DNA of 63,769 nucleotides, filler included, from Phoronis australis (GCA_002633005.1; 12 parts of 12 records of this genome joined end to end with filler, not necessarily neighbours in it), one strand, 5' to 3'. Numbered from the whole stretch's first letter, positions 743-49,016 are shown. The notes: generated by a model from the letters alone, not told the origin. Program-made: numbers and translations.

Positions 743-2227
743 CCGTATTCGCCATGATAACCGCCCAGGGCGTTTAGAAAAGTTCGTTTTTTTGGGGGGG
801 GGGGAGGNGGGGTGCTTATTATCACCCAAGCCGCTGAAACCGGGTCTTCGAAACGGGTGAAAGCGGAAGCTAAGATTCATCATATTTATGCTCTGTGACA
901 TATCTGTAATCTATGAAAGACTTTCTACAAAACTGTGGTGCATTGCTATCAAACTTTGCTGCTAAATTACGATCATTTTACAGAAAATTGTGCTGAAATC
1001 CCAGAGCGAAAACTTGCCAACTGACTGCTTCGCAATCGTCTATATGGCAACTTGAATGCTTGAATAAAAATACAGTTTCTACTCAAGCAAATTACCTGAA
1101 ATCCTCCTTAAGTTTTCCAAGTAGCGTCCCTAAGATTTTTAAGTTCCCATGGAGTTGGGATCACGGCAAGTTTAAGTACAAATCTGTGCTACATAATGCC
1201 ATCTACATCGGCAACATGAGAAAAATGTCTGGACGAACACACATGTTGTTGTCAAGTGACGTTTGTTTTGAAGTTCGTCTGCGTTTTGAGTAAGCGAGCG
1301 CGTGCGTGTCATCAGAGTTCATTTTCCAGAGCAGAGACGGTCTTTTGGCCAGAGCCACGCAATATAACGAGTTAGATGTGCATTGTATATAAAGAAATTT
1401 GCACAAGCACTAAGCCTAAACAAGAGCGTGATTCATTCAGCACTTGCCGGTCACGTGCTAAAAACGTTCGACATTTGTCTCGGTAAGGCCCATATTAGTC
1501 GTCGTGTGGCTGGATGCGTACGTGACTATCTGACAGTTATTTTTTCGGTGTAAGGGTGTGTAAGCATTCACTGTCAATGTTCATTTTATCGGTTATTTGG
1601 CTTAAAAACACCAATTATGGTTAATCAAACAACTCATCTTAAAAATAATGCAAATTAGTGTCTGTGTTCATTCTTGCCGATGCTATGCTACCCGTTTCAT
1701 GAATGGATAGTTCCCGACTAATGTCTTTGATGACAGGTTCATGTATGTAGCGCACGCTTCCTGGCCACGTGCTTTTAACACTGGCCAAGCTTTTTATTAG
1801 TCTTCGATTCGCGGTTTTCAGTCATGTACACAGAAATTTGGATTCCTGTTGAAAGCGGAAAATATCTACAAAGCAATCCCGTAGACAAGTACACTACTTC
1901 TGTTCTGAAAGTCCAGACCATTGGTCCTCACAAGATAAGCAGAAGTTTTGTGTTCGTTTTGAGGCATGGCGGAAGTTTGAAGTTTATAATCACGGCTAAA
2001 TACCTACATAGCGGCAAGGCTCGTGGTCTACAAATTCTGCGCATAATGATTTTTTTCAGGACTGTCGGATATTATTGATAAATTGAAGACGTTACTGTAG
2101 AATTTTAGAACTGTAGGTAAGGCATTTTTCACACGTACACGTTCGTGGACTAGGCGCTTATTTTAGCAAAGTCTGAAAATGTGTGGGGCGCTTATAGGGG
2201 CATGGGCGGTTATTACGGCGAATACGG
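743..2227 (+). mobile_element. Non-autonomous DNA transposon, Tc1/mariner-pogo-like, ~1.5 kb
   Basis: Terminal inverted repeats CCGTATTCGCCatgATAACCGCCC (743) and GGGCGGTTATtacGGCGAATACGG (ends 2227) followed by TA. No transposase ORF. Related copies at ~16098-17228 (reverse) and ~35820-35962 (partial). Confidence 0.75.
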
Positions 2228-2439
2228 TAGTAGTGAATTGAAGTGAGCTTTGTGAGGCCTAGCCAGCCTTATGATATTCTGAAGTGTTTTTGACACACCA
2301 ATACAGCTGTGGACATTGTTCATGGCAATGGCGATTAAATCATCATGGTACAAGGTAAGTGACAACTGATTGTAACAGCCAAGTTGTTTTGCAAAATCGC
2401 TAATTTTCCATTGAATGGTGTTTATGTCTTTTTCTTAAG

Positions 2440-2599
2440 TTATTGGACCATGTGTGTGGATCACATTCTGATCTTCCCAAACGTTCATTCAAGTCACAAG
2501 GTGAATTAGTAATACACTGGGTAACAATCGACAACTCCACCGCTCAACAGTCGCACGTCGGCTTTAGGATGATGCTGACTAGTTATTCTGATAGTCCAG
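2440..2599 (+). CDS. Exon encoding the C-terminal half of a CUB domain
   Basis: Polypyrimidine tract plus AG before 2440, donor CAG|GTAAGA at 2600. Translation LLDHVCGSHSDLPKRSFKSQGELVIHWVTIDNSTAQQSHVGFRMMLTSY fits the CUB pattern CG...P..F.S...L.I.F.TD....GF...Y. Confidence 0.75.
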
Positions 2600-3875
2600 G
2601 TAAGATATTGATGAGTGGTAGTAGTATTAGTAGTAGTACTGATAGTCCAGGTAAGATATTGATGAGTGATAGTAGTAGCAAGAGCAGCAACAGCAGGTGT
2701 TGTAGTAGCAGATATCGTATAAACACCTGAAAACAGAAAAGTTACCATTCACGTTGATAGTACAATACTCTGCAGGTGGTCTGATACACGTCGCATCAGT
2801 GTGTGCAGGAGGCTCAGCTAGGCTGCAAACGTGACCTAGTCTCTCAATAACTTTTTACTCTCGCGACATTTAGGGAGCTGGCGTCGTCCATGGCTTTTAC
2901 TCCTTGAAAAGAAAACCTGTCATGAAAACCTGAGGAGATACTCATGCATTATGAACATAATTAATTTAAACCTTGAGTTCATACTGCATGTTGAGTTCAT
3001 ATTGCATGTTTGAGACAGCTCAACTCAGTTCAGTTATATCCCCCCAGTAGTCCAATCTTGTCGGTCTGGCTCGCACACCACGTCGCAAATGTAAAAATTT
3101 CTTGAGCAACTGGGTCGCATTTGCAGCCGGGCCCATTGCATCAAACACCTGAAACCATTGTCACAAACGGTATTTGTCTTTTGTCAAAGTGAAGCTCATT
3201 CCAGTCTTACATAAACATTACGCAGATTAAGATCTAACTGAGGAGCTAGGGACCAACGGTATAGCAATGGGGTCCAGTGGTATTTGAACCAAGGCTTTTG
3301 AGAACAGGAAGCAGACAGTTAATCCACTAGGCCACACTGTCTCCTCCATCTTAATGGCAGGCCTCTGTAAAGCTTTTGAGAAGCCGTTAATCTGAGGAGT
3401 TGCCAGTTTTAACCACACCTGCCACTTGCTCGATTGTGTCTTGTCATTGTTGATCTTCTTTGATTAGTTGTATGGTGTTGAAATTCCGCTGCAGTGCTGT
3501 AAGATTTGGATTTTTCTTCTCAAAATTACATCACAGTATTGATTTATTTTTTAATTCTTTCCATTGCATCATCTTGGAAATAGTGCGAAAATGCAAAATG
3601 CCAAAGGCAAACAAAAAACTTTATATAACAGTTTTTGAGGATTTACAATATTCAGTTTCACGAAAACCCAATCATATGACGTTCCTCAAGACATGAAAGT
3701 AAGCATACAAGTGACAATTGATCAGATAATAGCTGCTTTAGTTCACCACCATCATCTAGTGCTGACTAACTCAATCTAACATCAAAATCCCTATATCAGT
3801 TCTCTTAATCTATTAACGGTTTAAAAATCTTTACCTCAAGTTTCTGTCGTCCAAAATTCTGAGACTAACCAAATT

Positions 3876-4410
3876 AAGGTTATGTATGACCCTCGAAAAA
3901 TGGCCAAATTTTGGCAAAACTTCGGAACGTCTTATCTTAGAAATGGCTGGTCATATTCTCATGAAACTTGCACATACCGTCCATCTTGTTTTGTTCTCCA
4001 AAACGCTGTTCAAAATTGTTTGAAATGTTCACTTATGCATGAGCGACTTTTGTGATTTTTATGAATATAAACTTAAAAGTTGCATAAAACGAAAACGAAA
4101 TTATAGTTTTAGAAAATTTACAGCATTTTTGAGATTCCACCTATAACATAATTATATCAAATGAAATTTGTTCTTGTCATTAATATCGTTCATGTTATCA
4201 ATGTTGTTCATGTTATCAATATTGTGCTTTGGAGGGACCTTTTCTCTTTTGCTGATTTTTTCTAAAAAGACACGCTCTCGCGACCCAATTAATAACTGAT
4301 TATTACAAAGTCAGAAATCAAATATTTACTTTTAATGAGTCAGTTAAAATTTAAAATTTAAATTAATTTAGATATTTGGGTTAATACGCCGAGAAGTGAA
4401 TAAAGTCCTG
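3876..4410 (+). mobile_element. TTAA-flanked non-autonomous element (Kolobok-like), ~520 bp
   Basis: Begins TTAAGGTTATGT and ends ...GCATGACC. It is collinear with and similar to 28163-28678, which begins TTAAGGTTATGT and ends ACATTACC. Confidence 0.5.
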
Positions 4411-5039
4411 CATGACCTTTTGCTTTGTTTTGAGTTAAGCAAACTGTGATTGTGAGACTGGTAAGACTGCACGTTCTATGTGAAACAAACTGAAACCACA
4501 TTGCATTTCAACAGATTACAGTCTGGCATTGGTTATCAGGTGTGAAACATAGTTTGTGACAAGCCTGTTTGTTTATTGCTGACATTTTGTGTTATCCTAA
4601 TGGTGTGTGCTGTTTGAATGTTTGTTATTCCTTGTGTCGATAATTGCTGCTAATCTTAATGTTGGGCCAAGTCCTCATAATGTTCCAAGTGTATAAGTTA
4701 GCATTTATGTTTTGTTATCCAACCATTGTGTGTAATTGGTATTTAACAATAAACAGTAACAGAGGGGCAGATATTTTCTTTGTTACTATGGCAACATATT
4801 ATTAAGAATGATCAGTGTTTTGTTTATGAAATAGTGACTTAGGATTTAAGTCAGAAATTTGATCTACTGTTGAAGAATTATTACATCTCCATTTAGCAAA
4901 AAAGAAAGATACAGTCTCATAACTGCTAGCTTCTGGGATAACTTCTATAAACCATGTCTAAAGTATGATGTGCTCACAATTACTTGGCTAAACCTTTTTC
5001 AGCAATTGTGAAGCGGGAACACAAGACCAAATAATTGCA

Positions 5040-5400
5040 GGTTTTCTGGCACTCATTGCACCAGGTGCTGCTCAGGTGGAACCTTTTTATGGTTTATTAA
5101 TAGTTAAGACCACTCTGAGGAGCTAAGGACCTGACTCAAGGTCTAGCACTTTGTCCCAGTGGGGCTCAAGGTCTAGCACTGTGTCCCAGTGAGGCTCAAG
5201 GTCTAGCACTGTGTCTCAGTGGGGCTCAAGGTCTATCACTGTGTCCCATTGTGACTCAAGGGTCTAGCACTGTGTCCCAGTGTGACTCAAGGTCTAGCAC
5301 TGTGTCCCAGTGTGACTCAAGGTCTAGCACTGTGTCCCAGTGAGACTCGACCTCACGACCTTGAATAAGGGAGCAGACACTTATCCCACTAAGCCTCACT
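5040..5400 (-). mobile_element. tRNA-derived SINE-like element with an internal 30-bp tandem amplification
   Basis: Minus strand has an A-box-like AGGCTTAGTGG (5386-5396) and a B-box-like GGTCGAGTC (5344-5352), followed by CCTTGAGTCAGGTCCTT, which resembles SINE central domains. Confidence 0.55.
5133..5350. repeat. 30-bp minisatellite GACTCAAGGTCTAGCACTGTGTCCCAGTGT, about 7 copies
   Basis: Tandem units are directly visible. Confidence 0.95.
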
Positions 5401-5846
5401 TTCAGTCGTGAGTCTTTAGTCTTTCCATGTGACAGACCACAGATTGAGGAACAGAGACATTTACTTCACTATAAACTTACTATGAAAAGCTTACACTAAC
5501 CTGTATGACTTGTTGTGGGCCTGGCAGTTTTATGTTTTACTTGTCCTTGTATCAGNAGCACTGTGTCCCAGTGTGACTCAAGGTCTAGCACTGTGTCCCA
5601 GTGTGACTCAAGGTCTAGCACTGTGTCCCAGTGAGACTCGACCTCACGACCTTGAATAAGGGAGCAGACACTTATCCCACTAAGCCTCACTTTCAGTCGT
5701 GAGTCTTTAGTCTTTCCACGTGACAGACCACAGATTGAGGAACAGAGACATTTACTTCACTATAAACTTACTATGAAAAGCTTACACTAACCTGTATGAC
5801 TTGTTGTGGGCCTGGCAGTTTTATGTTTTACTTGTCCTTGTATCAG
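5266..5846. repeat. 290-bp near-identical tandem duplication around a single N (probable unmerged contig overlap)
   Basis: 5266-5555 matches 5557-5846 apart from one visible substitution; the two copies are separated by n at 5556. Confidence 0.85.
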
Positions 5847-6160
5847 CTGATGCTAATTGTGCCACAGTTTTACATAGTAATGAAGCATAAAAGGGTTCTA
5901 GGTGATTCAGTGCAATGGGTCTACCTGAGCAACCTGCGCATGCCTCGTGCAACGTGTACCCAACCCCCTGCAATTAGTTTTTTAAGACAGGTATTTGGTC
6001 GTGTGCTCCCACTTCTCAGTGACATCACAGGATCACCTGTTGCTTTCCATAGAAAAGCAGTGGAGCGAATATGTTGGTCTAAAAATTGCCATCAAAAACT
6101 TTTACCATGTTGACAAAAATTGTCACTGGGTTGCCCAATTATGGTTTCTTTTTATTTCTA

Positions 6161-6290
6161 GATGGCGGATGTGAGCCTAGGTCTATACTGTGCCCAGTAA
6201 AGGGCTGGTGTATACCAAAGTCTTTAATGTGTGACGGTTTCCCACACTGCACTGATGGTTACGATGAGGGCAGTGCCTACTGCGTAAAAT
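6161..6290 (+). CDS. Exon encoding an LDL-receptor class A module
   Basis: Acceptor TTTCTAG| and GT at 6291. DGGCEPRSILCPVKGWCIPKSLMCDGFPHCTDGYDEGSAYC has six Cys and the CDG..HC.DG.DE motif. Phase 1 is compatible with the CUB exon in the same segment. Confidence 0.9.
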
Positions 6291-6294
6291 GTAT

Positions 6295-6394
6295 NNNNNN
6301 NNNNNNNNNNNNNNNNNNNNNNNNNNNNNNNNNNNNNNTTAATTAATTAANNNNNNNNNNNNNNNNNNNNNNNNNNNNNNNNNNNNNNNNNNNN
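6295..6394. other. Artificial contig spacer N44-TTAATTAATTAA-N44 (first of 11)
   Basis: The same 100-nt spacer starts at 6295, 9167, 11948, 25718, 35963, 40200, 48610, 50931, 52926, 57416 and 60612. Confidence 0.98.
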
Positions 6395-6481
6395 TGACAT
6401 AGAAAGTAGTTACAAAGCCGAGGTGAGTCGAGAAAGGTAGATCGATTCATTGCAATGTTTCTCGTTCAGTGTATGGTATAA

Positions 6482-6708
6482 ATAGATTATTACATGTTCT
6501 CAGTCGTTATCCCCCTTATCTAATGCCCCTCGGGCGATAATTCTCCAAAATCCACTCGGGCGATAATTCTCCAAAATCCACTCGGGCGATAATTCTCCAA
6601 AATCCACTCGGGCGATAATTCTTCAAAATCCACTCGGGCGATAATTCTCCAAAATCCACTCGGGCTCTAGATAAGGGGGTTAACGACTGAGAACATGTAA
6701 TAATCTAT
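6482..6708. mobile_element. MITE with 41-bp TIRs enclosing a 26-bp tandem repeat
   Basis: ATAGATTATTACATGTTCTCAGTCGTTATCCCCCTTATCTA (6482-6522) has its reverse complement at 6668-6708 with 1 mismatch. The interior is CTCGGGCGATAATTCTCCAAAATCCA x ~5. Confidence 0.85.
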
Positions 6709-8246
6709 ATTTATGAGAATCGATAAGCAAACCTTTTGCGAGAAAGGAAGAAAGTTGGATCTGTGTCCCACTTTCAATGACAACAGGTAATTAACTGACC
6801 TGTTTTATAATACAAAGTGAGAATATGCCTTACAGGTCAAGACCTCATTATTATAAAACCAACTTACAAGACAACCAATTAGAATCAGGAAGACATATAA
6901 ACATTGTATGCAATGTTATGCAACGATTAGGACACAATTTTGACCCACTTCCCCTACTCACTTGGGAAAGTCAATGGTGGGCTATTGGGTAATTTTATTG
7001 ATTCAGATTTTTGTGACATACCTTGAAATTCTAGTGCACTCTGGACAATCAAATAGGAATGCCTGGAAATTGAGGCGGGGGGGGGGGGGGGGGGGGGGNG
7101 TTGGGCATCTTGCCAGACATGAGCCAGGCGTCACCTTGAGTCAAGGCTTGACCACATGTGACGTACTTCCGAAATTGCAAAATGTAATGGCTTTTGAATT
7201 AAGGAAATGTTGTTCTTAATAACAGTGGATATACCTCGAATCCTCAAGTGCTTTAACCCCAAATTTGTTGCGATCTCACTGGAGCAGGACACTTTGAATG
7301 GTGTTAGAAGAAAGAACAATTGCTAATGGTTTGTTGAAACCTTGTTTTGTGTAAATTTATTGAGTTTTGTGTTTGATATGGACGGCTGAAGTGAAGCACC
7401 CGTAGAATTTCTGGTCGAGAGTGTCATACCTTGTAGTATTATATATAGTGTACGATCAGAAAGTCGAGGATGCCTGTGGTTCCCACTGTCTAGCTCAGTA
7501 GCTGGGTTGTAGTAGTAGTACACTAGTACAGATGGTCAGTGCCAGTGCTAGTGCCACTGGCACTGCCACTGCCAGTGGCAGTGGCAGTGCCAGTGGTCAG
7601 TCTGATTAATGTTGTATGTCAGAGTGCTAACTTCAGTAGAAAAAATCACCGGCCCAACGACTAGGAAAACTTCCAAAAGTACAAAAATATAACCTGGTAA
7701 TCCTCAAGATCATCTTCTGTGAACACACTGTGTGAATTGCCCATGGTTCGAGGACAAAACCTGTTGACACAAGTCCACTACTGTTGCTCACCAGAAAATA
7801 TCCACGGATATCGAGAAATCCCGACAAACTATGATAACAGTCTTAAACCCAAAAACATTTACGCATTTCATAATATTAAATTATAAGATGCCATGACCTA
7901 GAGATACTAATGGGACATTATCAAATATACTATTTCTATGAAATATCTGTTGTTGATTTTGGTTTATTAGCAAAAATAATGCTTGAATACATCAAAATGC
8001 TTTGGAGAGTACACTAAGGCGGAAGTGAGACTGTGATGAAGTAATCATTACAAATTCTGAGTTGTCATCGTACGCAATGTTTGCAAGTGTACCTGGTGGA
8101 GCAGGGCCGACCAATAGTAAGTTCTTTTTCCTGTTTTATCGTAGTATCTTAAACTTGTGTTGAACGATTGACTATTATTTTTGTTTTCTAATTCAATGAG
8201 AGTCACTTACTGACACTTTTTCACAGAAATAGTATTAATNAACTGC

Positions 8247-8795
8247 TGTTGTAGATGTGCTTCCGGTGAATTATATGAGCCTCTGTTAGCTACTCGCTAA
8301 TGGGCAATTGCCTATTAGCTGAATGGTTAGCATGTTTGCCGGTTTTATGGGGGTCGCTAGTTCGATTCCCGAGTCAGGTGATCTCCGCTATGGCGTAGTT
8401 GGCAAACAGATGATCTACTGATGAAGCACTGCCAACTAGTACCCACGGACCTCGGGACGGTGCGCGTGGAAGGTTCCAGGAGTCAAGGACCTGTATGAGA
8501 GACTACCTTGTGTTCACCTGTGTTGTGGTGGTAAAGGTATGTGGTGGTAAAGGTACCAAGGGAGGTTGATGACCTGTATGCGAGACATCCTGGTGTTCAC
8601 CTTCCTGTTCGCGTGCCCGTTCCGTAGGGAAGGGGGGAATGTTGTAGATGTGCTTCCGGTGAATTATATGAGCCTCTGTTAGCTACTCGCTAACGGGCAA
8701 TTGTCTATTAGCTGAATGGTTAGCACGCTTGCCGGTTTTATGGGGGTCGCTGGTTCGATTCCCGAGTCGGGTGATGTCGGCTATTGCTAGCTACA
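8247..8795 (+). mobile_element. Terminal-repeat retrotransposon in miniature (TRIM) with tRNA-like sequence inside its LTRs
   Basis: Direct repeats 8247-8390 and 8640-8795 (TG...CA). PBS TGGCGTAGTTGGCA at 8391, polypurine tract AGGGAAGGGGGGAA at 8626-8639, CTGC on both flanks. A box TAGCTGAATGG and B box (G/A)GTTCGATTCC in each LTR. Confidence 0.9.
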
Positions 8796-11732
8796 CTGCA
8801 ACCACTGAGTGACTGAGATGTGGCAGTGCTGAACTGAGAATCATAAACGCAAAGCAGGCATGATTGTAATCAGGTCCCAAAGATATGCGTGATCTTGTAT
8901 TTCTGTGAGATTCTCTGGTCTACGGAACGCACACGTGAACAATGCAAGTAAAAATAAGATAGTCAGTGCAACGCGTGGACGGATTTGTCACGATGAAAAG
9001 CTTACTTTAAAATTCTGAAATCTTTTGTTGTATTCCCTTGTACCAACTGTATAAGCCTTTTTATACTTCAGAATGAATTCATTGAATTGATGTTTAGCAG
9101 CATCGTGATCTCTTACGACATGAATGCACAAAACGCCGTAAAACTGTAAAAAGAGAAAGCTACAGANNNNNNNNNNNNNNNNNNNNNNNNNNNNNNNNNN
9201 NNNNNNNNNNTTAATTAATTAANNNNNNNNNNNNNNNNNNNNNNNNNNNNNNNNNNNNNNNNNNNNTCCACTTGTTCCTTATTCAGATGAGAAATGATTT
9301 TTATGCGCCTACATATTTCTCAGTATGTGGGTGCACATTGCCATCATGTACATATTTCTCAACGCCCGCGGCTGTATCTCCTAAACCCGTCGCACAATCA
9401 TGATGAGATTTGGCAGATGTAATGCAATGAAGCAGGCAGATCCGAGTACTGTTTTTGCGCCTTGATGTCAATTTTTTAACGTTTGCCTCTGTATCTTTGA
9501 AGTTCCTTGATGGATTTTCGTGAAATTTAGCAAATATGCTTCCATTAAGGAGACGACGATTTCTTCCAATTCTTCAACTGGTGACAATTTAAAGAAATGC
9601 ATACGTTTTTGACGTCCGCCTCTATCTGGCAACTGAAACCACCCAAAGGATCGCAATGAACCGACAGAGCATGTTTCTGATGCTGATGTTTGGGGTTCGA
9701 TTATTTTGGGTCCTAGTGGCGATTTCGTTTCCCGCGTTGACGGATATGGAAGATACATGTATGTTGACTGCAGCTGTGCCCCCTACAAAGGCCATTTATA
9801 TTTTTTACGTTTGCCTCTGTATCTTTAGAATTCATTGATGTTTTTTTTTTTGAAATTTGACAAATGGGTTTCTAATATGAACACTACCATACCTTTTAAT
9901 TTGGAAATATTCGACGTATTCCGTGTATTATTTCGAGTTGTTTTAGCGTCCGCGTATTTATCCGTCACACTCCTCGAAGTATTATGACGAATGGTGGCTA
10001 ATGAGAAGGTCATGACTAAATCAGCCTGTGCTTTATCAGTCACCACATATGACGCTGTAGTCAATTGTTAATTGCGAAGACTTGCGTTTCAGCAAGATAC
10101 CTGCGTCTTCGAAACAGCTAGAGCCCTGAATAGACCAGACATCCCTGAATAAAGTACTTAATTGTACAGTGTAATATATAGTGGTAGTAAAGATTTGTTC
10201 GTAGAACTGCACAAATAAACTGTTCAGTGAACGCACCACTGTTTCAAACAAGTCCCGATCAGATTCTATGTAGTACATGTGATTCTCTCAACTAATATAC
10301 GTTCGTATGTCGCTACCATTGGTGTTGATGAGAAGGTGCGGAGATGGCCAAAGAACTGCTGACACGGTTAGGATATAAACGCACTGCGGTCGTCAGGCAA
10401 TGGTGCGCCCAGTCTGCTGCAGTGACATTTCAATGGCAGCGCCAATGGCAAGGGCGCGCTCCGATGGATTTTGATTCCTGCATGATGGATTGGTGGGGAA
10501 AAGGATGGATTGATGGAGGTGTGAATAGTTGGTTCAAGTGAGAGACAGTTGGATATTTGGCGAGGTCCGTAAGGCGCTTTTATGGCCACACCACCACTAT
10601 CTTGTGCATGTACTTTTTGCGGTGTCCAGTCCACTTTTGTGGTGAACTAGGTAAATGGTAGTAGCGGCTATCACTGTGGCTACGATCATGGTTTAAACAA
10701 GCCATCTATCTTACTGCTGATTTGTTTTTTTTTTTTGCTTTTTAGGGTTAATTTTATTTATTTATTGATGNCCCGCCATCAAATACTCCTCCTACATTGA
10801 CAATTTTAGTCGTCCGATGCGTTGCTCGTCACGGTGTAGAAAAGTGAAAACCTATAAACGGCCCGTCTTTGCTACCTTTCAACTCGATGACAAGTTATTA
10901 ATGTAGGTGGCGCTTAAGATTCGTTACTTTGGTTCATGAAGGTTTGCTGTCGGCTTGAATGTGAACTTCTATCACGTTTACGTCCGCAGCAATCGTTTAA
11001 TTTCATTACTCATACAAAAACGGGGTGTCACCTTCGCAAATCGGTTCAACTTGCTTAAGGCAAAAGTTAATCTGCGACTGGACTTAGAAAGTTTTAAACG
11101 GCTCCACGTATGTAGGCAAAGATTCTAAATCTCTGATATCCACCTCCATCATTTTTACACTCGCTTCATCAAACACCCAAGGAAAGGATATTGCGTTCAC
11201 GTACATGTATGCACCGAAAATTTGAATTATCAAAACACCGGTACAGCTCTACCAGCTGCCCATTACCACGACCTAGTGATATGCTACCTATACGTTGTGA
11301 GTGCTTATATATGTTGGCACACCTTTAGGTAGGTTAAACACTTTGCAACAATAAAGGTCTGAAGAGAAAGTAAGTACGATTTTGCCGCTACTAGCCGGTT
11401 AGTTGTAACCAATCAAATAAGCTCTGATTTATATTCGACACTTGTGAGAATTGTTGAATTCTATCTTAGTTAGAACTATGGTATGGTTTAACTGTTGGAT
11501 GTATGTGTTATTTATCTTTGAAGGATTTGGACAGTTTGAATGATTACTATTAAAGTGTCTCATTGTACTGTGTGCACGCTTTTGATTCGTAGTTCCTTTT
11601 GTTATTTTATTAGTAATATACATGTAACATATAATTATGGTTACAACAGTTGGCTTTATACCGGACAAGGCAACACAGTGTTATAGATATGAAACTCAGA
11701 TATTCTTAACCCTTATTTGCAGACTTTCCGTG

Positions 11733-11943: not shown

Positions 11944-14552
11944 GTATNNNNNNNNNNNNNNNNNNNNNNNNNNNNNNNNNNNNNNNNNNNNTTAATTAAT
12001 TAANNNNNNNNNNNNNNNNNNNNNNNNNNNNNNNNNNNNNNNNNNNNAACCGCGGTTTGGAACCCGTATCCGGACGCGGCCTAGCCGCGTTCGATAGGAC
12101 GTTGGATTCGATCAGCACTGTATAATGTTCGAACAAAGATGAAATCCGGAGTATTACTGGACATCACTGACTGTCAAGTTCATTATCTCCCTCATTTGAC
12201 CATTTTCCTGCGCGGTTCAAGGCAGCCAAGCGTGAAAAGAAACATTTATCCCGTTGTAGTGTCAGCCAGCCTTCCTCCCGAAACTGCTCATCCGTCTTAA
12301 TCGCCTGTGAAGTTTTTGTGGGGTCTGCTTGGTTGCTCTACTTTCTGAAAAATGACAGGCAGTTTGTAACACTCTTGAATTATACACTTTTTGCAGAACT
12401 TTGCAGAGCCCAGCCACTACACAGGTGTGACTGCCGCTGAGTGATCCAATGTTTTTAGCTGAGATAATTCATTTGACCCATGGAGTGTAATATGTAAAAC
12501 GACCATAAGTACAACAAGAAAAAGCACTGTGGGTACTTGATTTATTTTTGCCAGTTTGATTGGATTCCTTTGGACATCAAATGAATATCATATCCGGACA
12601 TCAAATGAATATCATATCCAGACAACAAATGTCAACATAGTGGTACTCATAAAACATAACGACACGCTGATTTCCAGAATTAGAATGATTCACTGACAGC
12701 TGAAGTGAAAAGAAATTCCGGCATGCAGGTTGTCAGTTAAAATTGGAATTTATAATGCTATAACTACAGCATTTGTCAATATATGTATAGAAATAATACT
12801 TCCTGTAATGAACTAAAAAGAAGACGCATAACAACAATATCGGTTGTTGAAAAGTGAAAGTCAATGAGATATTGCATTTTCCGCTTGCAACAAGTACAGG
12901 CACTAGATGCACATAATCTCAGACTAAACTTACAGCTAACACAAGATGCTACTAGTAAGTGGACTGAATAGTTCTAGGCTAGCCTAGACTCCAACAACGG
13001 CGAAAGGGCAGGTATATCACTGATTTGCCCTTAGGAACACAAGACTTGTTTTAAAATCAGTTGTTTACTGTGATGCAGGTATAGGACTACTAAATTTCAC
13101 CAGTGGGTACAATAAAAAGCTATGTCTATACTACATGTTCAAAACCAAGTACTGTTGTTACATTTTTGTGGTACATGCATGGTCACACAGTTTGAGATCT
13201 TCCTGAAAGGAGGGATCAGTAACTTGCATTACAGGGTACTGTATTAGAATAACATCTGTTGTTTCTAGCGGTGCTAACTGGTTCTTGAATCATGTATCCA
13301 CAAAACTGACTATTACCGCCACAATGCTATCGTGATAACCTCAAATTCAAACAAAGCAGTAGTAGTACTCACCAGATCCAAGAGAAAAGAACACAAATGC
13401 ATTGACATTGTTGAGTTCCTGTGAAAGTAAGTTGACTGTAGACATTTCAACCAGCATCCCCACTTCAGGATTGGCACGCGAGCTACCACTATTGAAATGG
13501 GTGTTTGCAGAGTCTACATGGTTTCCACAGAACTCCAAGATCAGTCCGGTGTCTTGCCCTTGCCATGGACGCAGTCACACAGGCGTGACACGGGTCCGGT
13601 GAACACGTATTTGTAAATTGTCCCACTCTCGCCAAAATCAGTTGCCGCACAGTCTGTAGGTGCGGTAGTTTGCTACTCACTTTATGCCGCATCAAGATTT
13701 CGCACATGTGCAGAGGACATTCTTTTGAGGTTCCATACACTTCATCACACTCCATCATACTAGCAGATAACACAGCAAGTCAGGATCAACCATTTTGCCA
13801 CCACTAAAGTGACACCTGTTGTTGGACACTGGGTTAACGAAAAACGTGGAATTTTAATTAAAAAGGAAAAATACCTTAAACAATTGCGCCTGACTTAATG
13901 ACACTTAACTAAATATTAATAAATCAACTTTTGAATCAAAACTATTTACTTTACTGGTGTTGTAAAGTCCCAAACAGGTATCGGTATTGAAGGTAATTTC
14001 TACTCAGGTGGTTATCGCAATCTTGCAATATGTATAGAAAAATGCTCAGCGCCAGAAAATTTTATTGTATTAATCAACAGCAATAAGATAAGACGTCTTG
14101 TGTGAAAGTCTGGTGTTGATCAGTGTTGCGCCAGCTGAGATATACGGGCTCAAAATGTGGCGAAATTGCAATGCCTTGTTAACCTCTGACCCCTGTATAA
14201 TTTATGCCTGAAATTTTTGACTTAGCGGCACAGTTAATGCGTATTGTTTAACATCTCTGTAAAGCCGAAGACTTGCTTTATTTTAAAATCACAAACAAAT
14301 AATGATCTCGTGCGCCGATATTTTTTATTGTGCAGTGCAAATAAGGCATTTTCGGCGAGTTCATTGCATAGCATACCCCCAAAATAGAGGCTCCCTGATT
14401 TCTCCCCCTTAAACAAGGTAAAATGAGATTGGACTTTACTGTTTTGTTTATCATCCCAAAGGTAACTAAAATGCATATTATGGTTCAAATCGGTGACATT
14501 GGGTTTATCACCCATCTGGGCATTTTTGCCTGCTGTGAGCCGTACTTCACTC

Positions 14553-15585
14553 TTAAGTAGAGTTATGGGGCGATAGTTGGCAATGTCTGTTTTGGAGTTC
14601 TTTTTGTGTATTGGTATCATAACGCCAAGCTTCCAGTTCAAAGGAAATTTTCCAGATTGTAGTATTTTGTTGTATACTGTTGTCAGAGGAAGTGTAAGCT
14701 CTCTTGCTATTATCTTGATCATTTTATTGGTTATGAGATTGGTACCGTCGTTTTTGTTTTCGTCAATGTTTTCTAGTAGTTTTCTGACTTCAGATGGTTG
14801 GGCCTCTATGTAAGAGAGGTGTTCTAATGTTCTGTTTGGGAAATCTGGATAGTTTATTGTTGGTGCATTGTGACTCTTGGCAGTGAAGTAGTCTAGAAAT
14901 AAAATAATTTATCGGCTTTGGATGACGCCTGAGAGTTGGATTCTTTTGAGTGGATGGTGGGGTATGATGATTGCTTTACCTGTCCTCGAATTTTGTTTAC
15001 TATATCCCAATATTCCTTAGAATTTTTGGAGACATTTTTGATATTGGAGATAACTTTCATCTTATAGTCTTGTTTTGTCTTTTTAATTAGTTCTTCCACA
15101 CTCTTGCACTGTTCTTTGTAGCGCTTGAACGTGCATGGGTTATTTGATCTTCTGAACGATCTGTACAGTTTATTTCTTTTATTTATTTCAGACTTAATGT
15201 TATTGTTAAACCACGGTTTGTTCTTGTTTTTTATTGTTTTCATGGTTGATGGGATATTATTATCTAATATGTTGTAGAGTGACTGTGTGAATATTGCGTC
15301 ATTTATGTCACTTTTGTTAAGTATTTCAGTCCAGTTGAATGTGGTTATGTCAGAGTGCAGTTTGTCCATGTTAATGAGGTTGTAATTCCAGATCTTCTTC
15401 ATAATGTCTGGTTCTTTAGGTGCGCAGTTGAGTGTGAATGTTGTTTCTATAACGTGGTGGTCTGAGTTACCAATGGGAGGCCTTACAGAAGTGGATTCAA
15501 TTAATCCGAGATTGTTTGTTATACATAAGTCAAGGCAAGAATGTGAGTACTCTGTTAAATGTGTCGGCTCGTTTATTAGTTGTAT
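14553..15585 (-). mobile_element. CR1-group LINE ORF2, middle part (end of APE to start of RT), degenerate and truncated
   Basis: Minus strand encodes QLINEPT, KPWFNNNIKSEI and NWKLGVMIPIHKKNSKTDIANYRPITLL. Frames are broken and similarity ends at TTAA 14553-14556. Confidence 0.9.
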
Positions 15586-15743
15586 TCACCTATTTCACGA
15601 AAGCGCCATCTTCCCGCGCCATCTTTAAATACTGATCGAAAACGAGGCACACTGATAAAACCTCGTGAGCGGTCATCAGCTGGCCTTGATGGTGTAATGT
15701 GCAGTGCCTGAACGTACCAATTCCAACTCGTCGGTATCCTTCC

Positions 15744-17413
15744 CAGGGATATACTTAACCAAAATGGTGCTGGGCGAGTAGAAGTTGACTTGCCGGTCGC
15801 CCAGGTGGCGAGCAAATTTCAAAGCGCAAAAGCACTATATATCGTAATTCCCAGATGAATATGAATAATTTTCCTCCTCCTTGTGCTGTTTTTATCATGA
15901 ATTTAAGGTTCAGCTTGGTCATCGTGTCGATGCTCCGGCAGTAAAAAACATCGGCGCAATGCGATCCTACCGATTCAGTACATGTCATCCGTTACGCGAC
16001 TCGTCAAAAAAATCACAGTGTGTGGTCGTGTAGGCCGAAACGAAGAAAAGGGGAGAAAGGTGGACGACCGGTCCATGTGCTCATAGCAAATGAAATACCA
16101 TATTTCTTGGAACTGATTCCTTTTTGTAATGTACAATGTCATTTTAGCCAAAATTATTTTTATAACATAAGCGCAAAATTATTTTTATAACATAAGCGCC
16201 CATGCCCCTATAAGCGTCCCCACTCGTTTCCAGACTTCGCTAAAATAAGCGCCCAGTCCATGAATGTGTATATATTTGTGCGAAAAATGTCTTACCTCAC
16301 AGTTCTAAAATTCTCCAGTAATGTATTCAATTTATCAATAATATCCGACAGTCCTGAAAAATCATAGTGCACGGAATTTCTAGTAGACCACGAAGCCTCG
16401 CTCGTCGGTATTTAGCCGTGGCTGTACACTTCAAACCGTTCCGCAGTGCTTCAAAAAGAACGCAAAAGATTTGCTGATCTTGTGAGGAAAATGTCACACT
16501 ACATGGTCTGGCCCTTCGAACAGACGCAGCGTACTGGTCAACGGGATTGGTGTTGTATTTTTCCTGTACAGATTTTCTCCCACAACAGGAATCCAGATTG
16601 CTTTGTACACGTAAAATTATAAAACTTAACCGCGAATCGAAACTTGGCCAAGAAGTGCGCGCTAGAGCCTACATGTGGGCCTGCTCAATGAGATAAATAT
16701 AACTACATATACAGCTCATTGGGCCTGCTACTCTGGCAAATGAACACTGATGACACGCACGCGCTCGCTCATTCGGTGCACACCTGTTGACTCACTTCAA
16801 TACAAACGTCACGTGACAACATATGTGTTCGTCCAGATTTTTCTCGTTGCCGGGTGCGATCTAGCGCAGTTTGACTTAATCTGCGGTTACATCCCGACTC
16901 CGAGTCCACAGGAACTTAAGAATCTTAGGAAAGGCTATTTGGAAAACTTAAGGAGGATTTGAGGTAATTTGAGTCGAAACTATTTTTACTCAAGAATTCA
17001 AGTTGTCCTATCGACGATTGCGAAGCAGCGACGCATCAGTTGGCAAGTTTTCGCCCTGGGATTTCAGCACATTTTTTTTTTAAAGATTAACAACAGAGTT
17101 TGATAGCAATGCACCACAGTTTTGTAGAAAGTCTGTCATAGGTTACACATACGTCACAGCGGACCGGGTTTTAACCGCCCTACTACAAAAAGCGTCCCCC
17201 TGGGCGCTAATTATTAGGGCAAATACGGTAGCCCTAATAGATGGTGACATCAGTGCACGAAACGATGATTTTTATTTAAACTATTAGCAAGTTTGTCGTG
17301 ACTGGCGCCAACGGCCGGGTGACTGAACTTCGGGCGAGTAGATTTTCTGGCTTCGACACTCGCCCAGCTGGCGAGCAGGATTTTTCAAGACTAAAAGCCT
17401 GGGTAAATCCCTG
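15744..17413. mobile_element. hAT-like non-autonomous element nested in the AT-TSD element
   Basis: TIRs CAGGGATATAC / GTAAATCCCTG (10/11). Subterminal GGGCGAGTAGA...TCGCCCAG.TGGCGAGCA motifs occur at both ends. Flanks are CCTTCC / ACTTCC. Confidence 0.6.
16098..17228 (-). mobile_element. Second, inverted copy of the 743-2227 mariner/pogo-like family, nested in the hAT-like element
   Basis: 16195-16640 is the reverse complement of ~1810-2210 and 16780-17160 of ~890-1265. The right end is GGCAAATACGG-TA; the left boundary is approximate. Confidence 0.75.
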
Positions 17414-17651
17414 ACTTCCACACTTTTCCAAAAAAGGGAAAACTACGGAATAATGGCTGAGGAGGGTAAAAGTCTAGTCGCCGTGCATGTTGGTATGTTT
17501 TTGGAGACCGATTCAACATCAGACAACTTGATTTTTGGTAACGTTGATAAGTCTTTTGACCACGCCCCCTTGCAGGACGATGCCATGTTTGTCAAGGCGC
17601 CTCGTTTTCGATCAACACGACAGCAGCGCCCCGCGTTCGTGAAATAGGAGA

Positions 17652-18340
17652 ATACAGTCATTTGTGAGGAGAATATCGAATAATTCGAGACCGGCGTGGT
17701 TGTCATTGTCTTCTGAGTACCAAGTACTATTTCTTGCGTTGAAATCCCCGTTGATAACAATTGTTTTATTAGTTTGAGAGAGTTCTTGCAATTGTTCTGA
17801 AAAGGTTTTGAAATATGCTTTCCTTTCATGGGACGTCTGTGAGGGTGAGCGATAGAAAAAAACGTAATATACCTTTTTGTGGTTGACGTAAAGTTCAATC
17901 CAACAGTTACTCAATGATTGCATAATTTTATCATCAATTGTTTTGTAATTTACGGAGTTGTAGACAAACAAGATCAACCCCCTCCCGGCATTAGTGTGGT
18001 AGGCAATGTTGTATTCTGGAATAATAAGTGCACTGAGGTTGTCTTCGGACAGTGTTCCAGATTCACATATAGCAATGACCATGTAATTGTTGTCTGTAAT
18101 AACTTGCTTAAGAAAATCAAATCTTGAAAGATTGTTCGCCTTGATACTGTTGATATTAGTGAATAAGACCTTGAAGCTGGCTAAACCCTGAGTGCCTGGT
18201 CCTGGATTGACCTCTATGTCACCAGCAGTAAAAAGACTTTGCTCAATGATAACTCGGATATCACAACATGAGTTCTTCATTGTGCAGTAAACATTACGTA
18301 AGTGCTCAGTTCGGGGTCGTTTTCGTAGTAGAAGAGTGAG
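17652..18340 (-). mobile_element. CR1-group LINE ORF2 N-terminus (2A-like motif + APE endonuclease), copy 1
   Basis: AGDIEVNPGP followed by FTNINSI, AICES, YRSPSQ and GDFNAR. It continues into 15585 once the insertion is removed. Confidence 0.9.
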
Positions 18341-18744
18341 NNNNNNNNNNNNNNNNNNNNNNNNNNNNNNNNNNNNNNNNNNNNNNNNNNNNNNNNNNNN
18401 NNNNNNNNNNNNNNNNNNNNNNNNNNNNNNNNNNNNNNNNNNNNNNNNNNNNNNNNNNNNNNNNNNNNNNNNNNNNNNNNNNNNNNNNNNNNNNNNNNNN
18501 NNNNNNNNNNNNNNNNNNNNNNNNNNNNNNNNNNNNNNNNNNNNNNNNNNNNNNNNNNNNNNNNNNNNNNNNNNNNNNNNNNNNNNNNNNNNNNNNNNNN
18601 NNNNNNNNNNNNNNNNNNNNNNNNNNNNNNNNNNNNNNNNNNNNNNNNNNNNNNNNNNNNNNNNNNNNNNNNNNNNNNNNNNNNNNNNNNNNNNNNNNNN
18701 NNNNNNNNNNNNNNNNNNNNNNNNNNNNNNNNNNNNNNNNNNNN

Positions 18745-19602
18745 ACATAAATCAAGGCAAGAATGTGAATACTCTGTTAAACGTGTCGGCTCGTTTATTA
18801 GTTGTATACAGTCATTTGTGAGGAGAATATCGAATAATTCGAGACCGGCTTGGTTGTCATTGTCTTCAGAGTACCAAGTACTATTTCTTGCGTTGAAATC
18901 CCCGTTGATAACAATTGTTTTATTAGTTTGAGAGAGTTCTTGCAATTGTTCTGAAAAGGTTTTGAAATATGATTTCCTTTCATGGGACGTCTGTGAGGGT
19001 GAGCGATAGAAAAAAACGTAATATACCTTTTTGTGGTTGACGTAAAGTTCAATCCAACAGTTACTCATTGATTGTATAATTTTATCATCAATTGTTTTGT
19101 AATTTACGGAGTTGCGGACAAACAAGATCAACCCCCTCCCGGCGTTAGTGTGGTAGGCAATGTAGTATTCTGGAATAATAAGTGCACTGAGATTGTCTTC
19201 GGACAGTGTTCCAGATTCACATATAGCAATGACCATGTAATTGTTGTCTGTAATAACTTGCTTGAGAAGATCAAATCTTGAAAGATTGTTCGCCTTGATA
19301 CTGTTGATATTAGTGAATAAGACCTTGAAGCTGGGTAAACCCCGAGTGCCTGGTCCTGGATTGACCTCTATGTCACCAGCAGTCAAAAGGCTTTGCTCAA
19401 TGATAACTCGGATATCACAACATGAGTTCTTCATTGTGCAGTAAACATTACTTAAGTGCTCAGTTCGGGGTCGTTTTCGTAGTAGAAGAGTGAGGTCGAG
19501 CGTAATAGACGAAAAGCAGTTATGTATTTTTGTTTTCCAGACACCCAAACAATTATAATTATTATGTTTGTAGTTAAATACTGATAAATTCATACAGTTC
19601 AT
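18745..19602 (-). mobile_element. CR1-group LINE ORF2 N-terminus (2A-like motif + APE endonuclease), copy 2, open frame
   Basis: Open frame of ~285 aa up to the N gap, with DIEVNPGP (19351-19374) and the APE motifs through QLINEPTR...SCLDL. Confidence 0.92.
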
Positions 19603-21224
19603 AGTTAACGTGCTTGTCTAAAAAGAGAAAAAGAGGTATATACAAATGTGTGAATAGACTAAAAGTAATGAAGTAAGGACAAAAGCTATGAACACTAGGG
19701 TAGGCATGAAAATTCTCACCACCACTAATTTAATTACATTGAGTTAGGCTAAATCTTACAAATAGAAAACTGATGGATTAGTAACATTAACAAGTGAAAT
19801 GGATTGGCGTACTACGGATGTGATATTAGTTCAAATGGATGAGAGTCAACGGAGTAAACAATTTGTAAATATGTAGAACATTAATACTGTACTTTGGGAT
19901 GAAAATATATTGCCAATTAAGTTGTCTTATTACGCATGAAGCTGCCCGAGTGAAATAGAGCTCTGAGACAATACGATACTCGTTTGGCCGTTTTTAGCTT
20001 GAACGTTAGTGGTGATAAAAATTAAAACAGCTTCAAAAGCAAAGTTAACTCCTGAACTGATTCACACTTGATGGAAGTCTTGATTTGTAGATGAAAATGA
20101 ATCATTGAGGTAACATACATGTACATGTATCTGAATGACACAACTACAGTTGTCAAGTTCAGTGTAGTTTCAGAATCATGACACATGTGAGGCGTGAAAT
20201 ACTTTAAAAAATATTACTAACTTAGAGCTAACAACCTGCAGGGGTGCATGCAGAATCTGGGAATGAATCGACATTCACAGTGCCCGTTACAGCCATTTAT
20301 AGAAGTAAACGAAATCTAATAAACGTTATTTTTCGTAATTCTCCGCCTTTTTAACAAAAGAAAATCCTGCCGTCGTTTTGAAAACAGTGCAGTCTCGTGA
20401 CACGCGCATGTACGCGCCATTTCCCAAAACTTTGCGATGTCTCTCGAGAGTATTTTCTGAAATTGTTTTTTTTTTGGTATGATTAATAAAAACTTGTAAC
20501 GAAATGCTTAATCGACATTTATTGACACCCGCAATATTATGAAATCAAACAAAACTTTGGCTTACATGTAAGTATGAAATTGGCACAATAAATAAAATGC
20601 ATAAATTCCATAAATTGTTCTTTCCAGGAAGAACAAATATGTTAAAGGAAAGGGGAATGCTCAATATTGTGAAAGGACGTGGGGTGTATCACTGGACAAC
20701 AATCATTTGTCTTTCAAAAAAGATATTTTGTACAACAATGAGACAACTATCAACAAACTGATCGATAAGTGATTTTTTTGCAAAATTTGATACATGTTTT
20801 GTCCCCTTGTGTGGCAATATTTTATCATCATAGGCAGTGCACTGACTGGAAAAGCACATTGAGCCCTCAAAATACCCAAAACCTGAAGTTGATAGAATCT
20901 ACAAACTTACGTTTGAGGTGTTTATTAAAGCTCGTGGTCCATTGTGTGGTGATGGAAAGTCTTAATTGACTTGAAGACATTGGCTATGATTTTGGTGCCC
21001 ATTCATGTTCTGTCATGTGATTGGAGGGGCCCAGCCCGAAGGCGACTGAAGAACAAAGATTTTTGTATTATGATAGGGAGCCTTACCAGTCAAAAAGCGG
21101 GCCAATTATGCAATTTTACAGGAAACCACGAGAAGATGTATGAACATTGGGACCTCCTGTAATAGTCAGGGACCGTGACCAAAGGTAGTCAAATAGTGGT
21201 GCCTCCAAACTAATGTTGGGTATC

Positions 21225-24815: not shown

Positions 24816-25080
24816 TGTTGTGTACTTAGTCACACAATAACAGGATATTTGTAGGTTGTTATTGTTTATGAGTTTAGTAGTTTAATTGGTATTATGTCAT
24901 GCGATTCCTAGTACAGGAAGTGTGTCATAGGTAACCCATCATATGTTGTTATGTAGTTGTGTGTATATATATTGTGGTGATATGTAGAATAAATCAGTTC
25001 AGTGTTCAGTTCAATTCTGTTCGTTTCACTGCGTAGTTCATGGAGTGACTACTTTATTTGACAAAGTAAGATACACGACA
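24816..25080 (+). mobile_element. Gypsy 5' LTR
   Basis: Termini TGTTGTGTA...TACACGACA with internal TATATATA and AATAAA. It is followed by PBS TGGCGACGAG at 25082-25091 (tRNA-Ser type). The left boundary is inferred. Confidence 0.7.
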
Positions 25081-25091
25081 GTGGCGACGAG

Positions 25092-25717
25092 ATGACTGCG
25101 AGCTCACAGAGTTACCTACCCCCGTTTTCCGGTGAATATGATGGTAGCGAGGAGTGGGAATGCTACTTGGAAAGATTTGAACTGTTTCTACAAGCGAATG
25201 GGGAAACAGATTTCACGAAGAAGCAAGTGGCAGCAATGTTCTTGCATTCCATTGACAAGAAACATTATGGAATTGTACGGGATCTGGTCAGCCCAGCCAA
25301 ACCCAACCAGAAGACATACGGAGAGTTAAAGGAAACTCTGACGAAACACTTGGCAGGACCACGACTGACAATTGCGGAGACGAGACCAAAATAGAGGTGA
25401 GTCGATTACGGACTATGTAGTCGCGCTCAAACACCTCAGTCTTACCTGCAAGTTTGGTGATAAACTGGACGAGCAATTGAGGGACAGACTTATTAGCGGA
25501 ATTGCTAATGAGCAGACTTCGCTAAAGTTGCTTGAGAAGTCAAGGGAAAAGGAACTGACGTTTAATGAAACTGTCGAGTTCGCCTTAGCCAGAGAAAATA
25601 CTTTCATGGAAAACAAAACCATGAAAGGTGATATAGCTTCCACTGACGTAAAGGTGGTAAAGGCCAAAAGGAAAAATTGGGACCAGAAAAGCCGGCGAGT
25701 TGACAATCCAAAGGCAA
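25092..25717 (+). pseudogene. Gypsy (Mag-clade-like) gag, frameshifted near 25380 and cut by the segment end
   Basis: FSGEYDGSEEWECYLERFELFLQAN...LVSPAKP..KTYGELKETLTKH, then in another frame RDQNRGESITDYVVALKHLSLTCKFGDKLDEQLRDRLISGI. Confidence 0.9.
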
Positions 25718-34901: not shown

Positions 34902-35040
34902 GCAATTGGTCGCGCTGTTGGATTGGCTGTGGACATTGGTAACAACTTGCTGTTCTGGTCAGATATTGATCCAAATTTGCAAGGGATTTACAAGTTTGAC
35001 TTGACCAGGAAACGTGTTCAACAGATCTACGCACCAACAG
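34902..35040 (+). CDS. LDL-receptor class B (YWTD) repeat exon
   Basis: TTTTAG| ... CAG|GTTTGT, reading AIGRAVGLAVDIGNNLLFWSDIDPNLQGIYKFDLTRKRVQQIYAPT. Confidence 0.88.
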
Positions 35041-35262
35041 GTTTGTATCTCAGGGTTACTGCTAGGTCTGTGACAATAATTGACACTTTCTGTTAGCTTG
35101 CTGCTGCATGTATTTTGAAGGTAAAACATTTTAGGTTTCATTTTGTCTAGATATGATTCGCCAGTAGTCTAAACACGTTACTGTTCTCTTTGCCATTTGT
35201 TAGCTGTTCATACAACATTTGAATCTCCACTAGTTTTAATTTTCTTCCTGATCCAATTGCAG

Positions 35263-35437
35263 GTTTTACCACTGAAATTAATGGGCTGTCAGTGGACTGG
35301 ATACATAATCGTGTGTACTTCACAGACGCCATCCAGCGTACTGTTGAAGTGATGGAATACGACGGCAGTAACAGATATATCGTGGCCGGCTCGGAGCTCC
35401 AGCAGCCAAGAGGGGTGTTGGCTGATCCTATACATAA
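35263..35437 (+). CDS. LDL-receptor class B (YWTD) repeat exon
   Basis: TTGCAG| ... |GTATGT, reading GFTTEINGLSVDWIHNRVYFTDAIQRTVEVMEYDGSNRYIVAGSELQQPRGVLADPIH. Phase-compatible with the previous exon. Confidence 0.92.
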
Positions 35438-48709: not shown

Positions 48710-49016
48710 GCAACGTATTAAGCAGATGAAAGGTTAGTGTTGAACCAGATATCGTCCTTAACTCTTCAAGTCCCCTTGGCAAGACAAGAGCACCGGCATG
48801 GAGAACGCCACCAATTTCAAATCGTACCGCCGTAATAGAAGAGTTGTTATTGCGTGTTCTTTCGGGTGATCCTCCCTCGGTGTCGAGAAGAAATGTTCCG
48901 CGAGGAAGCACACTCAAACTCAAAAGTTCCAGATTGTTATGACCTCGTAAGCTCACGACATTAAAGATCTCAAGTTGTCCGCCAACTACAATCTGGTCAC
49001 ACCGAAACTCTTCGAT
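48710..49016 (-). CDS. Large beta-solenoid repeat protein, third visible exon (cut by segment end)
   Basis: TTCACAG|IEEFRCDQIVVGGQLEIFNVVSLRG...; phase 0 matches the donor at 49136. Confidence 0.85.

What the first reader, a model, noticed from the sequence alone, without database searches (positions are those of the whole stretch)
8243..8799. 549-bp miniature LTR retrotransposon carrying a tRNA-like Pol III promoter in each LTR
Seen: two ~150-bp direct repeats with TG...CA ends, a PBS directly after the first, a 14-nt polypurine tract abutting the second, CTGC on both flanks, and no ORF. Each LTR holds an A box (8316-8326; 8709-8719) and a B box (8359-8369; 8752-8762) at tRNA spacing. The 5' LTR lacks the last ~12 nt. 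Known: the PBS is complementary to the 3' end of tRNA-Ser (...GCCGACTACGCCA, one G:U pair); plant Cassandra TRIMs carry 5S RNA in their LTRs; and from memory, tRNA-containing TRIMs with 4-bp TSDs in animals have been named Helenus. Inference: this is a SINE/LTR hybrid transcribed by Pol III and mobilised by a Gypsy helper. The family or host may be new even if the class is not.
Basis: partly seen in the sequence, partly recalled or inferred. Interest (0 to 1): 0.8.

Follow-up and report, generated by a model that had tools for sequence, protein, structure and literature searches.

The report
tRNA-promoter miniature LTR retrotransposon (Helenus)
This is a real, gene-less 549-base jumping element with many copies in an animal genome; each end repeat carries tRNA-type promoter boxes that likely drive its copying, so it is a new family of a kind described in 2024 (Helenus), not a new kind.

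Summary
The anatomy is confirmed: LTRs at 8247-8390 and 8640-8795, a tRNA-Ser primer site, a 14-nt purine tract, no ORF, and A and B boxes in both LTRs. Public reads of the same species show a high-copy family. Summed depth on the LTR is thousands of times that of the flank, 58 and 50 contigs leave position 8247 into unlike flanks, and other copies end properly in CA.

It fits Helenus (Kojima 2024) as a new family; its Ser-AGA/TGA-type primer site is absent from the published set. The scan has noted Helenus-type elements before on other DNA (43 notes, at least 17 genomes).

Caveats: the 5' CTGC lies 3 bases from a probable scaffold mis-join and was not confirmed by reads. RNA-seq shows mostly antisense read-through and no discrete transcript. 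Neither the Gypsy helper nor the host taxon was found.

One extra: U3 is an inverted copy of the tRNA-like start, forming a predicted hairpin of about 25 pairs whose loop sits at the predicted start site. By eye the same design is in published coelacanth, fish, bivalve and nemertean Helenus LTRs, and the Helenus paper does not mention it.

The parts
8243..8246 (+). 5' copy of the candidate 4-bp target site duplication (CTGC); 3 bases right of the N at 8240
   Evidence: chance of a 4-mer match about 0.005; not confirmed by reads
8247..8390 (+). 5' LTR, starts TG, lacks its last bases and the terminal CA
   Evidence: sharp family boundary at 8247 in 58 (X1) and 50 (X2) contigs with unlike flanks
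8277..8337 (+). Predicted 25-pair hairpin: U3 arm is an inverted copy of the tRNA-like 5' part; loop 8306-8309 at the predicted tRNA +1
   Evidence: fold z -4.87; pairs and controls
8316..8326 (+). A box, 5' LTR
8343..8346 (+). T4 run between the A and B boxes; one of only two T4 runs on the element's + strand
   Evidence: absence of T4 elsewhere is not significant (1063 of 2000 shuffles)
8359..8369 (+). B box, 5' LTR (first base differs from nearly all other copies)
   Evidence: table 3
8391..8403 (+). Primer-binding site, 13 nt, complementary to the 3' end of tRNA-Ser AGA/TGA with one G:U pair
   Evidence: tRNA sequence in PMC10359600; about half or more of the laid depth pairs perfectly at 8400
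8404..8625 (+). Non-coding internal region with a 32-nt imperfect repeat (8488-8519, 8571-8602) and a 16-nt duplication (8524-8555) that many other copies lack
   Evidence: table 4, 29
8626..8639 (+). Polypurine tract, 14 nt, abutting the 3' LTR
8640..8795 (+). 3' LTR, TG...CA; A box 8709-8719, T4 8736-8739, B box 8752-8762; predicted 24-pair hairpin 8670-8730
   Evidence: (z -3.17)
8796..8799 (+). 3' copy of the candidate target site duplication (CTGC)
   Evidence: no contig was laid over 8772-8811

Best explanation
This is an aged copy of a high-copy, non-coding miniature LTR retrotransposon (TRIM) of the Helenus kind, whose tRNA-type A and B boxes likely let RNA polymerase III transcribe it and which likely borrows the proteins of a Gypsy retrotransposon to be copied. 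Shown: two LTRs, primer site, purine tract, no ORF, the boxes, many copies with a shared left end and CA end. Inferred cycle: TFIIIC binds the boxes in the 5' LTR and Pol III starts near 8309; the RNA runs through the internal region and ends in the 3' LTR, possibly at the T4 at 8736-8739, which would give an R of about 40 nt. Host tRNA-Ser primes the minus strand at 8391-8403, the purine tract primes the plus strand, and the helper's integrase inserts the cDNA with a 4-bp duplication. The U3 arm of the 3' LTR is predicted to pair with the tRNA-like segment at either end of the RNA, which would bring the two ends together for strand transfer. This copy is probably inactive: its 5' LTR has lost its end, and the LTRs differ by 5.6%. 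LTR depth is about ten times internal depth, which suggests many solo LTRs.
For: Anatomy. Copies: summed contig depth over the four LTR bins is about 1,800-5,300 (X1) and 2,600-7,400 (X2) times the left flank, and over seven internal bins 200-670 times (the tool warns this is no copy number; X1 and X2 are one sample). 58 and 50 contigs and 92 and 91 RNA reads (another study) run from 8247 into unlike flanks (agreement 0.36 in DNA); loose ends behind 8391 show other copies ending in CA and going on into unlike sequence. PBS equals the complement of the tRNA-Ser AGA/TGA 3' end. The boxes carry the motifs Kojima lists for Helenus, and length and 4-bp TSD fit animal Helenus, whose PBSs resemble only Gypsy PBSs. 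3 of the 8 LTR differences are CpG transitions, and at 6 of 8 the 5' LTR departs from most other copies.
Against: No discrete sense transcript: in two stranded RNA runs (18-19% read) antisense reads outnumber sense about 2:1 on the LTR, 72-73% of reads run on into unlike sequence, and no start or end cluster is listed inside the element. No tRNA structure is detected. The T4 in the 5' LTR should stop Pol III early unless read through. The TSD rests on one assembled copy beside an N; an X1 contig joins the left flank to an LTR through other letters at 8241-8247, and no contig covered the right junction. No helper with this PBS was found; the window's Gypsy-like piece has the Ser-GCT-type site.
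Confidence: 0.8

Rival explanations
1. An ordinary Pol II-driven TRIM: the tRNA-like boxes are a passive relic of a SINE that once inserted into the LTR, and copies are made from Pol II or host read-through RNA.
For: RNA-seq coverage is on both strands and mostly continues into host sequence; a T4 lies between the boxes; Kojima states Pol III function is unvalidated for Helenus.
Against: No TATA-like or poly(A) signal in the element; the B box G at 8359 is kept in 41,606 of 41,826 depth in other copies; the boxes are the conserved part across Helenus.
Confidence: 0.13
2. A Helenus-type TRIM mobilised by a BEL/Pao or Copia element and not by Gypsy.
For: No helper identified here; Kojima's Fig. 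S2 shows a BEL element sharing a PBS type with wasp Helenus, and fungal Helenus use Copia.
Against: The 4-bp TSD and 3'-end tRNA primer match the animal, Gypsy-type pattern; Copia-linked Helenus make 5-bp TSDs.
Confidence: 0.05
3. A chance duplication of a SINE head, or an assembly chimera with no real element behind it.
For: An N lies at 8240, and the assembly has 9 single-N joins, one flanked by a 290-nt duplication.
Against: Contigs and RNA reads join the purine tract to the LTR start (joint 8639 to 8247: 5 and 3 contigs, 14 and 20 reads) and the LTR end to the PBS in other copies; the family boundary is sharp. The join affects the left flank, not the element's layout.
Confidence: 0.02

Closest known systems
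Helenus (TRIMp3 with tRNA-derived LTR sequence); Kojima 2024, PMC10886601. Read: main text parts 1-4 and 6 of 6, term search of the whole text; supplement parts 1, 5, 6, 7, 9, 10, 11 of 11 and three term searches of the whole file.
   Same: TRIM under 1 kb, TG...CA LTRs with A and B boxes near the LTR 3' end, non-functional tRNA fold, 3'-end tRNA PBS, PPT, 4-bp TSD as in animal families, apparent solo-LTR excess. By eye, the same hairpin before the A box as in LTR1_LCh, LTR-11_DR, Helenus-1_CGi and Helenus-1_LiLo.
   Different: PBS of the Ser-AGA/TGA type: 0 hits for its first 9 letters in the supplement; the listed Ser sites are two other types. Of 6 ten-letter words from the element, 4 have no hit and 2 hit only fungal entries. 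No T run after the B box, which many bivalve and brachiopod families have (by eye); its T4 lies between the boxes.
Cassandra TRIM of plants; PMC7215508 (12 passages read) and as summarised in PMC10886601
   Same: Pol III promoter inside the LTRs, short R region, self-complementary LTRs reported
   Different: 5S rRNA-derived, plant, Met PBS; here tRNA-type boxes in an animal
Ajax (5S-bearing TRIM of nemerteans); PMC10886601
   Same: Animal TRIMp3; by eye its LTRs also hold a short hairpin before an A-box-like word
   Different: 5S promoter, 5-bp TSD, Leu PBS
biv-TRIM of bivalves; PMC6934838 (6 passages read)
   Same: Animal TRIM of similar size
   Different: No canonical PBS; no A/B box mentioned ('box' 0 hits)

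Membership tests
Helenus | TRIM: two LTRs, under about 1 kb, no coding capacity | tested here: met
   549 nt; LTRs 94% alike; longest ATG frame 37 codons
Helenus | tRNA-like sequence in the LTR with box A (TRGCY, YGG) and box B (GGTTC) | tested here: met
   Both motifs in the 3' LTR; the 5' LTR has a private change in box B. No similarity to a named tRNA was shown
Helenus | PBS complementary to a tRNA right after the 5' LTR | tested here: met
   13 nt against human tRNA-Ser AGA/TGA as printed in PMC10359600; the host's own tRNA was not available
Helenus | PPT abutting the 3' LTR | tested here: met
   14 purines, 8626-8639; joint seen in other copies
Helenus | 4-bp TSD (animal families) | tested here: inconclusive
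   CTGC on both sides (chance about 0.005), but beside an N, one copy only, not confirmed by reads
Helenus | Interspersed multi-copy family | tested here: met
   Depth and 58/50 unlike flanks at 8247
Helenus / TRIMp3 | Transcription by RNA polymerase III | tested here: inconclusive
   RNA-seq shows read-through on both strands and no start cluster; library selection unspecified
Helenus (animal) | Gypsy partner sharing the PBS | not testable with these tools
   No genome held; 1 PBS match in the window, the element itself
Cassandra / Ajax | 5S rRNA-derived promoter in the LTR | tested here: not met
   No 5S match in Rfam at E<=10
Retrozyme | Self-cleaving ribozyme in the LTR | tested here: not met
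   No ribozyme family at E<=10; one CTGANGA at 8418 but no GAAA on either strand, and most other copies differ at 8419
tRNA-derived SINE | Element starts at the tRNA head and ends in a LINE-type tail, no LTRs | tested here: not met
   The family boundary lies about 62 nt upstream of the tRNA-like start, at TG; PBS and PPT present

The most novel reading that the evidence does not exclude
The LTR hairpin is a conserved working part of one old animal lineage of Pol III-driven TRIMs. U3 is an inverted copy of the first ~27 nt of the tRNA-like unit with the loop at the start site, in this family and in coelacanth, ostariophysan fish, bivalve and nemertean Helenus (and perhaps Ajax). It pairs the two ends of the RNA for strand transfer or sets the Pol III end, and it would mean these families share one origin, or spread horizontally, against the separate origins proposed for fish and mollusc Helenus.
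Probability: 0.3. Interest if true: 0.55.

Novelty: new member of a known kind. Interest (0 to 1): 0.33.

Why it matters
Helenus was described only in 2024 and has no experimental validation in the papers found. A family with thousands of LTR-equivalents, a new primer type and public RNA data is a good test case for Pol III-driven LTR retrotransposition, and it scatters many Pol III-type promoters through the host genome. The shared hairpin gives a cheap, testable handle on how such RNAs are ended and reverse transcribed, and on whether animal Helenus arose once or many times. The class itself is not new.

Tried and rejected
No genome was held, so copies and TSDs could not be collected. No second copy in the window. 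Exact LTR word: 0 hits in metagenome and viral contigs. B box + LTR end + Ser PBS pattern: 3 metagenome loci, all GC-rich without LTRs, tRNAs or similarity, rejected as chance; 0 viral. No RNA holder on record was listed. The right junction was not covered by any of 8 laid contig pieces. tRNA and ribozyme searches were blank. T4 absence in the internal region is not significant. The internal region has no strong fold (z +2.39 and -1.49). The 22-nt inverted match at 8920-8941 (E 0.35) was set aside as probable chance. Host taxon: three homologue searches found nothing; one profile search gave 30 hits at 23-34% identity, and 1 of the 10 looked up is named, a starfish protein at 28%; the Atlas look-up of that homologue did not place it. 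The host is therefore only 'an animal, probably a marine invertebrate'. No earlier scan note matches this sequence. The element was compared with published Helenus sequences only by short-word search and by eye, not by alignment or folding; supplement parts 2-4 and 8 were covered by word search only. Repbase and Dfam were not available.

Full report
Observation. Two direct repeats align over 148 nt at 94%. I place the 5' LTR at 8247-8390 and the 3' LTR at 8640-8795, which gives 549 nt. They differ at 8 of 144 positions (6 transitions, 3 at CpG; K2P 0.058). A 13-nt PBS follows at 8391-8403, a 14-purine tract ends at 8639, and CTGC flanks both sides (chance about 0.005). The longest ATG-started frame is 37 codons. 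A and B boxes lie 43 nt apart in each LTR; a loose pattern finds only these 2 pairs in the window (null mean 0.3, maximum 2 in 100). ARAGORN and Rfam find no tRNA, and the segment folds no better than shuffles (z 0.17), so it is promoter-like, not a tRNA.

It is a family. No genome was held, so I used public runs of the same species and laid 6 of the 8. On 7700-8640, summed contig depth over the LTR is about 1,800-7,400 times the flank and over the internal region 200-670 times. The tool warns that this is no copy number, and X1 and X2 are one sample. 58 (X1) and 50 (X2) contigs, and 92 and 91 RNA reads from a different study, leave 8247 into unlike flanks. Other copies end in CA, carry a 2-nt spacer before the PBS, and join the purine tract to the LTR start. 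This copy's 5' LTR has lost about 8 terminal bases plus the spacer, and at 6 of the 8 LTR differences it departs from most copies. It is an aged, probably dead copy.

The left flank is suspect. An N lies at 8240, one of 9 single-N joins. An X1 contig runs from the left flank into an LTR through other letters at 8241-8247. RNA shows a + strand exon ending at a donor at 8117 on the left and a - strand exon at 9006-9164 on the right, with a weak cathepsin-propeptide match (E 0.006, below cut-off). Neither next exon is found in the window. I infer that two loci, each with an LTR, were joined at the repeat. The CTGC pair then belongs to the right-hand contig and is plausible, but no contig covered the right junction.

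Primer and helper. The PBS is the complement of the 3' end of human tRNA-Ser AGA-1-1 and TGA-2-1 as printed in PMC10359600 (passages read; the same motif stands in a tRNA-Ser template in PMC3299991, one passage). The one G:U pair is at 8400, where 45-64% of DNA depth shows the perfect pair. The Gypsy-like gag fragment in the window has a Ser-GCT-type site at 25082 (the Gypsy label is my recall, Pfam gave only a weak DUF7041), so it is not the obvious helper.

Transcription. The two host exons show that first mates read opposite to the RNA. On that basis the LTR has about twice as many antisense as sense reads, 72-73% of reads run on into unlike sequence, and no start or end cluster is listed inside the element. 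This gives no support for a discrete Pol III transcript. It is weak evidence against one, since library selection is unspecified and only 18-19% of each run was read. The only T4 runs lie between the boxes, once per LTR. Ending at the second one is a hypothesis by analogy with the short R of Cassandra; the lack of T4 elsewhere is expected by chance (1063 of 2000 shuffles).

The hairpin. Each LTR folds into a hairpin of 25 and 24 pairs (z -4.87 and -3.17) in which U3 pairs with the A box and D-arm region, with the loop at the predicted tRNA +1. I chose these windows after seeing the palindrome. As controls, the lowest z values among 41 sliding windows of the element fall there, and 6 and 19 of 1,827 windows elsewhere fold as low as the two LTR values (not GC-matched). 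The 5' end can also pair with the U3 arm of the 3' LTR (-23.2 kcal/mol). By eye, published LTRs show the same design with different letters: coelacanth LTR1_LCh 18 of 20 pairs, zebrafish LTR-11_DR 9 + 8, oyster Helenus-1_CGi 8 of 9 inner pairs, nemertean Helenus-1_LiLo 10 of 10 inner pairs. A 9-letter word of its 3' arm has 12 hits in the supplement, all in animal LTRs; the element's own version of that word has 0. Many Helenus (Lingula, ark shell, wasps) do not show it by eye. The Helenus text has 0 hits for hairpin, inverted and palindrome, and one five-term search listed 8 papers, none on this by title or abstract start. Self-complementary LTRs are reported for Cassandra. No covariation test was run.

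Comparison. Kojima 2024 defines Helenus as TRIMs with tRNA-like LTR sequence, PBS, PPT and, in animals, 4-bp TSDs, probably Gypsy-mobilised, with Pol III function unvalidated. This element meets every structural feature that could be tested; TSD and Pol III use are inconclusive. It matches no listed family by word search and uses a primer site not in Fig. S2. A search for later work listed 24 papers (20 shown); the two later transposon papers I opened, PMC12859917 and PMC13570524 (passages), only cite the class. The host could not be placed beyond 'animal', so 'new host' is open. The scan holds 43 notes on Helenus-like elements in at least 17 genomes, none with this sequence; two prompted the extra hammerhead check, which was negative, as was the earlier Rfam scan.

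Verdict. Real, well-formed and high-copy: a new family of a known kind. Interest 0.33. The hairpin is the part worth following up.

Noticed in passing
window 8240: The single N is probably a false scaffold join between two loci that each carry an LTR of this family; a contig from run X1 reads other letters at 8241-8247.
   Followed up: partly
window 7700-8118: Divergent transcripts: a - strand RNA starting near 7770-7810 and a + strand first exon 8025-8116 with a donor at 8117; an LTR copy lies about 130 nt into that intron.
   Followed up: partly
window 9006-9164 (-): Expressed exon with a weak cathepsin propeptide (I29) match; the element would lie antisense in the following intron.
   Followed up: partly
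window 25079-25717 (+): 5' part of a Gypsy-like element: CA end, Ser-GCT-type primer site at 25082-25091 and a broken gag-like frame.
   Followed up: partly
window 48654-50982 (-): Long exons of a repetitive protein without a Pfam match; relatives at 23-34% identity, one named from a starfish, whose model resembles bacterial beta-helix adhesins.
   Followed up: partly
window 34902-35453 (+): LDL-receptor class B (YWTD) exons.
   Followed up: no
window 14234-19617 (-) and 43684-44160 (-): Fragments of an APE-endonuclease LINE and a GIY-YIG (Penelope-like, label recalled) endonuclease.
   Followed up: no
whole window: The window is a chain of short contigs joined by 100-nt spacers (44 N, TTAATTAATTAA, 44 N), so neighbourhood across spacers means nothing.
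   Followed up: yes
PMC10886601 supplement, part 9 (Helenus-2_SyJa-LTR and Helenus-2_SyUm-LTR): By eye these two published wasp Helenus LTRs hold a hammerhead-like core after the B box; the parts of the paper I read do not remark on it.
   Followed up: no
PMC10886601 supplement, part 9 (Ajax LTRs): By eye both Ajax LTRs carry a hairpin and an A-box-like word upstream of the 5S part, like the Helenus subset; Ajax may derive from it.
   Followed up: no
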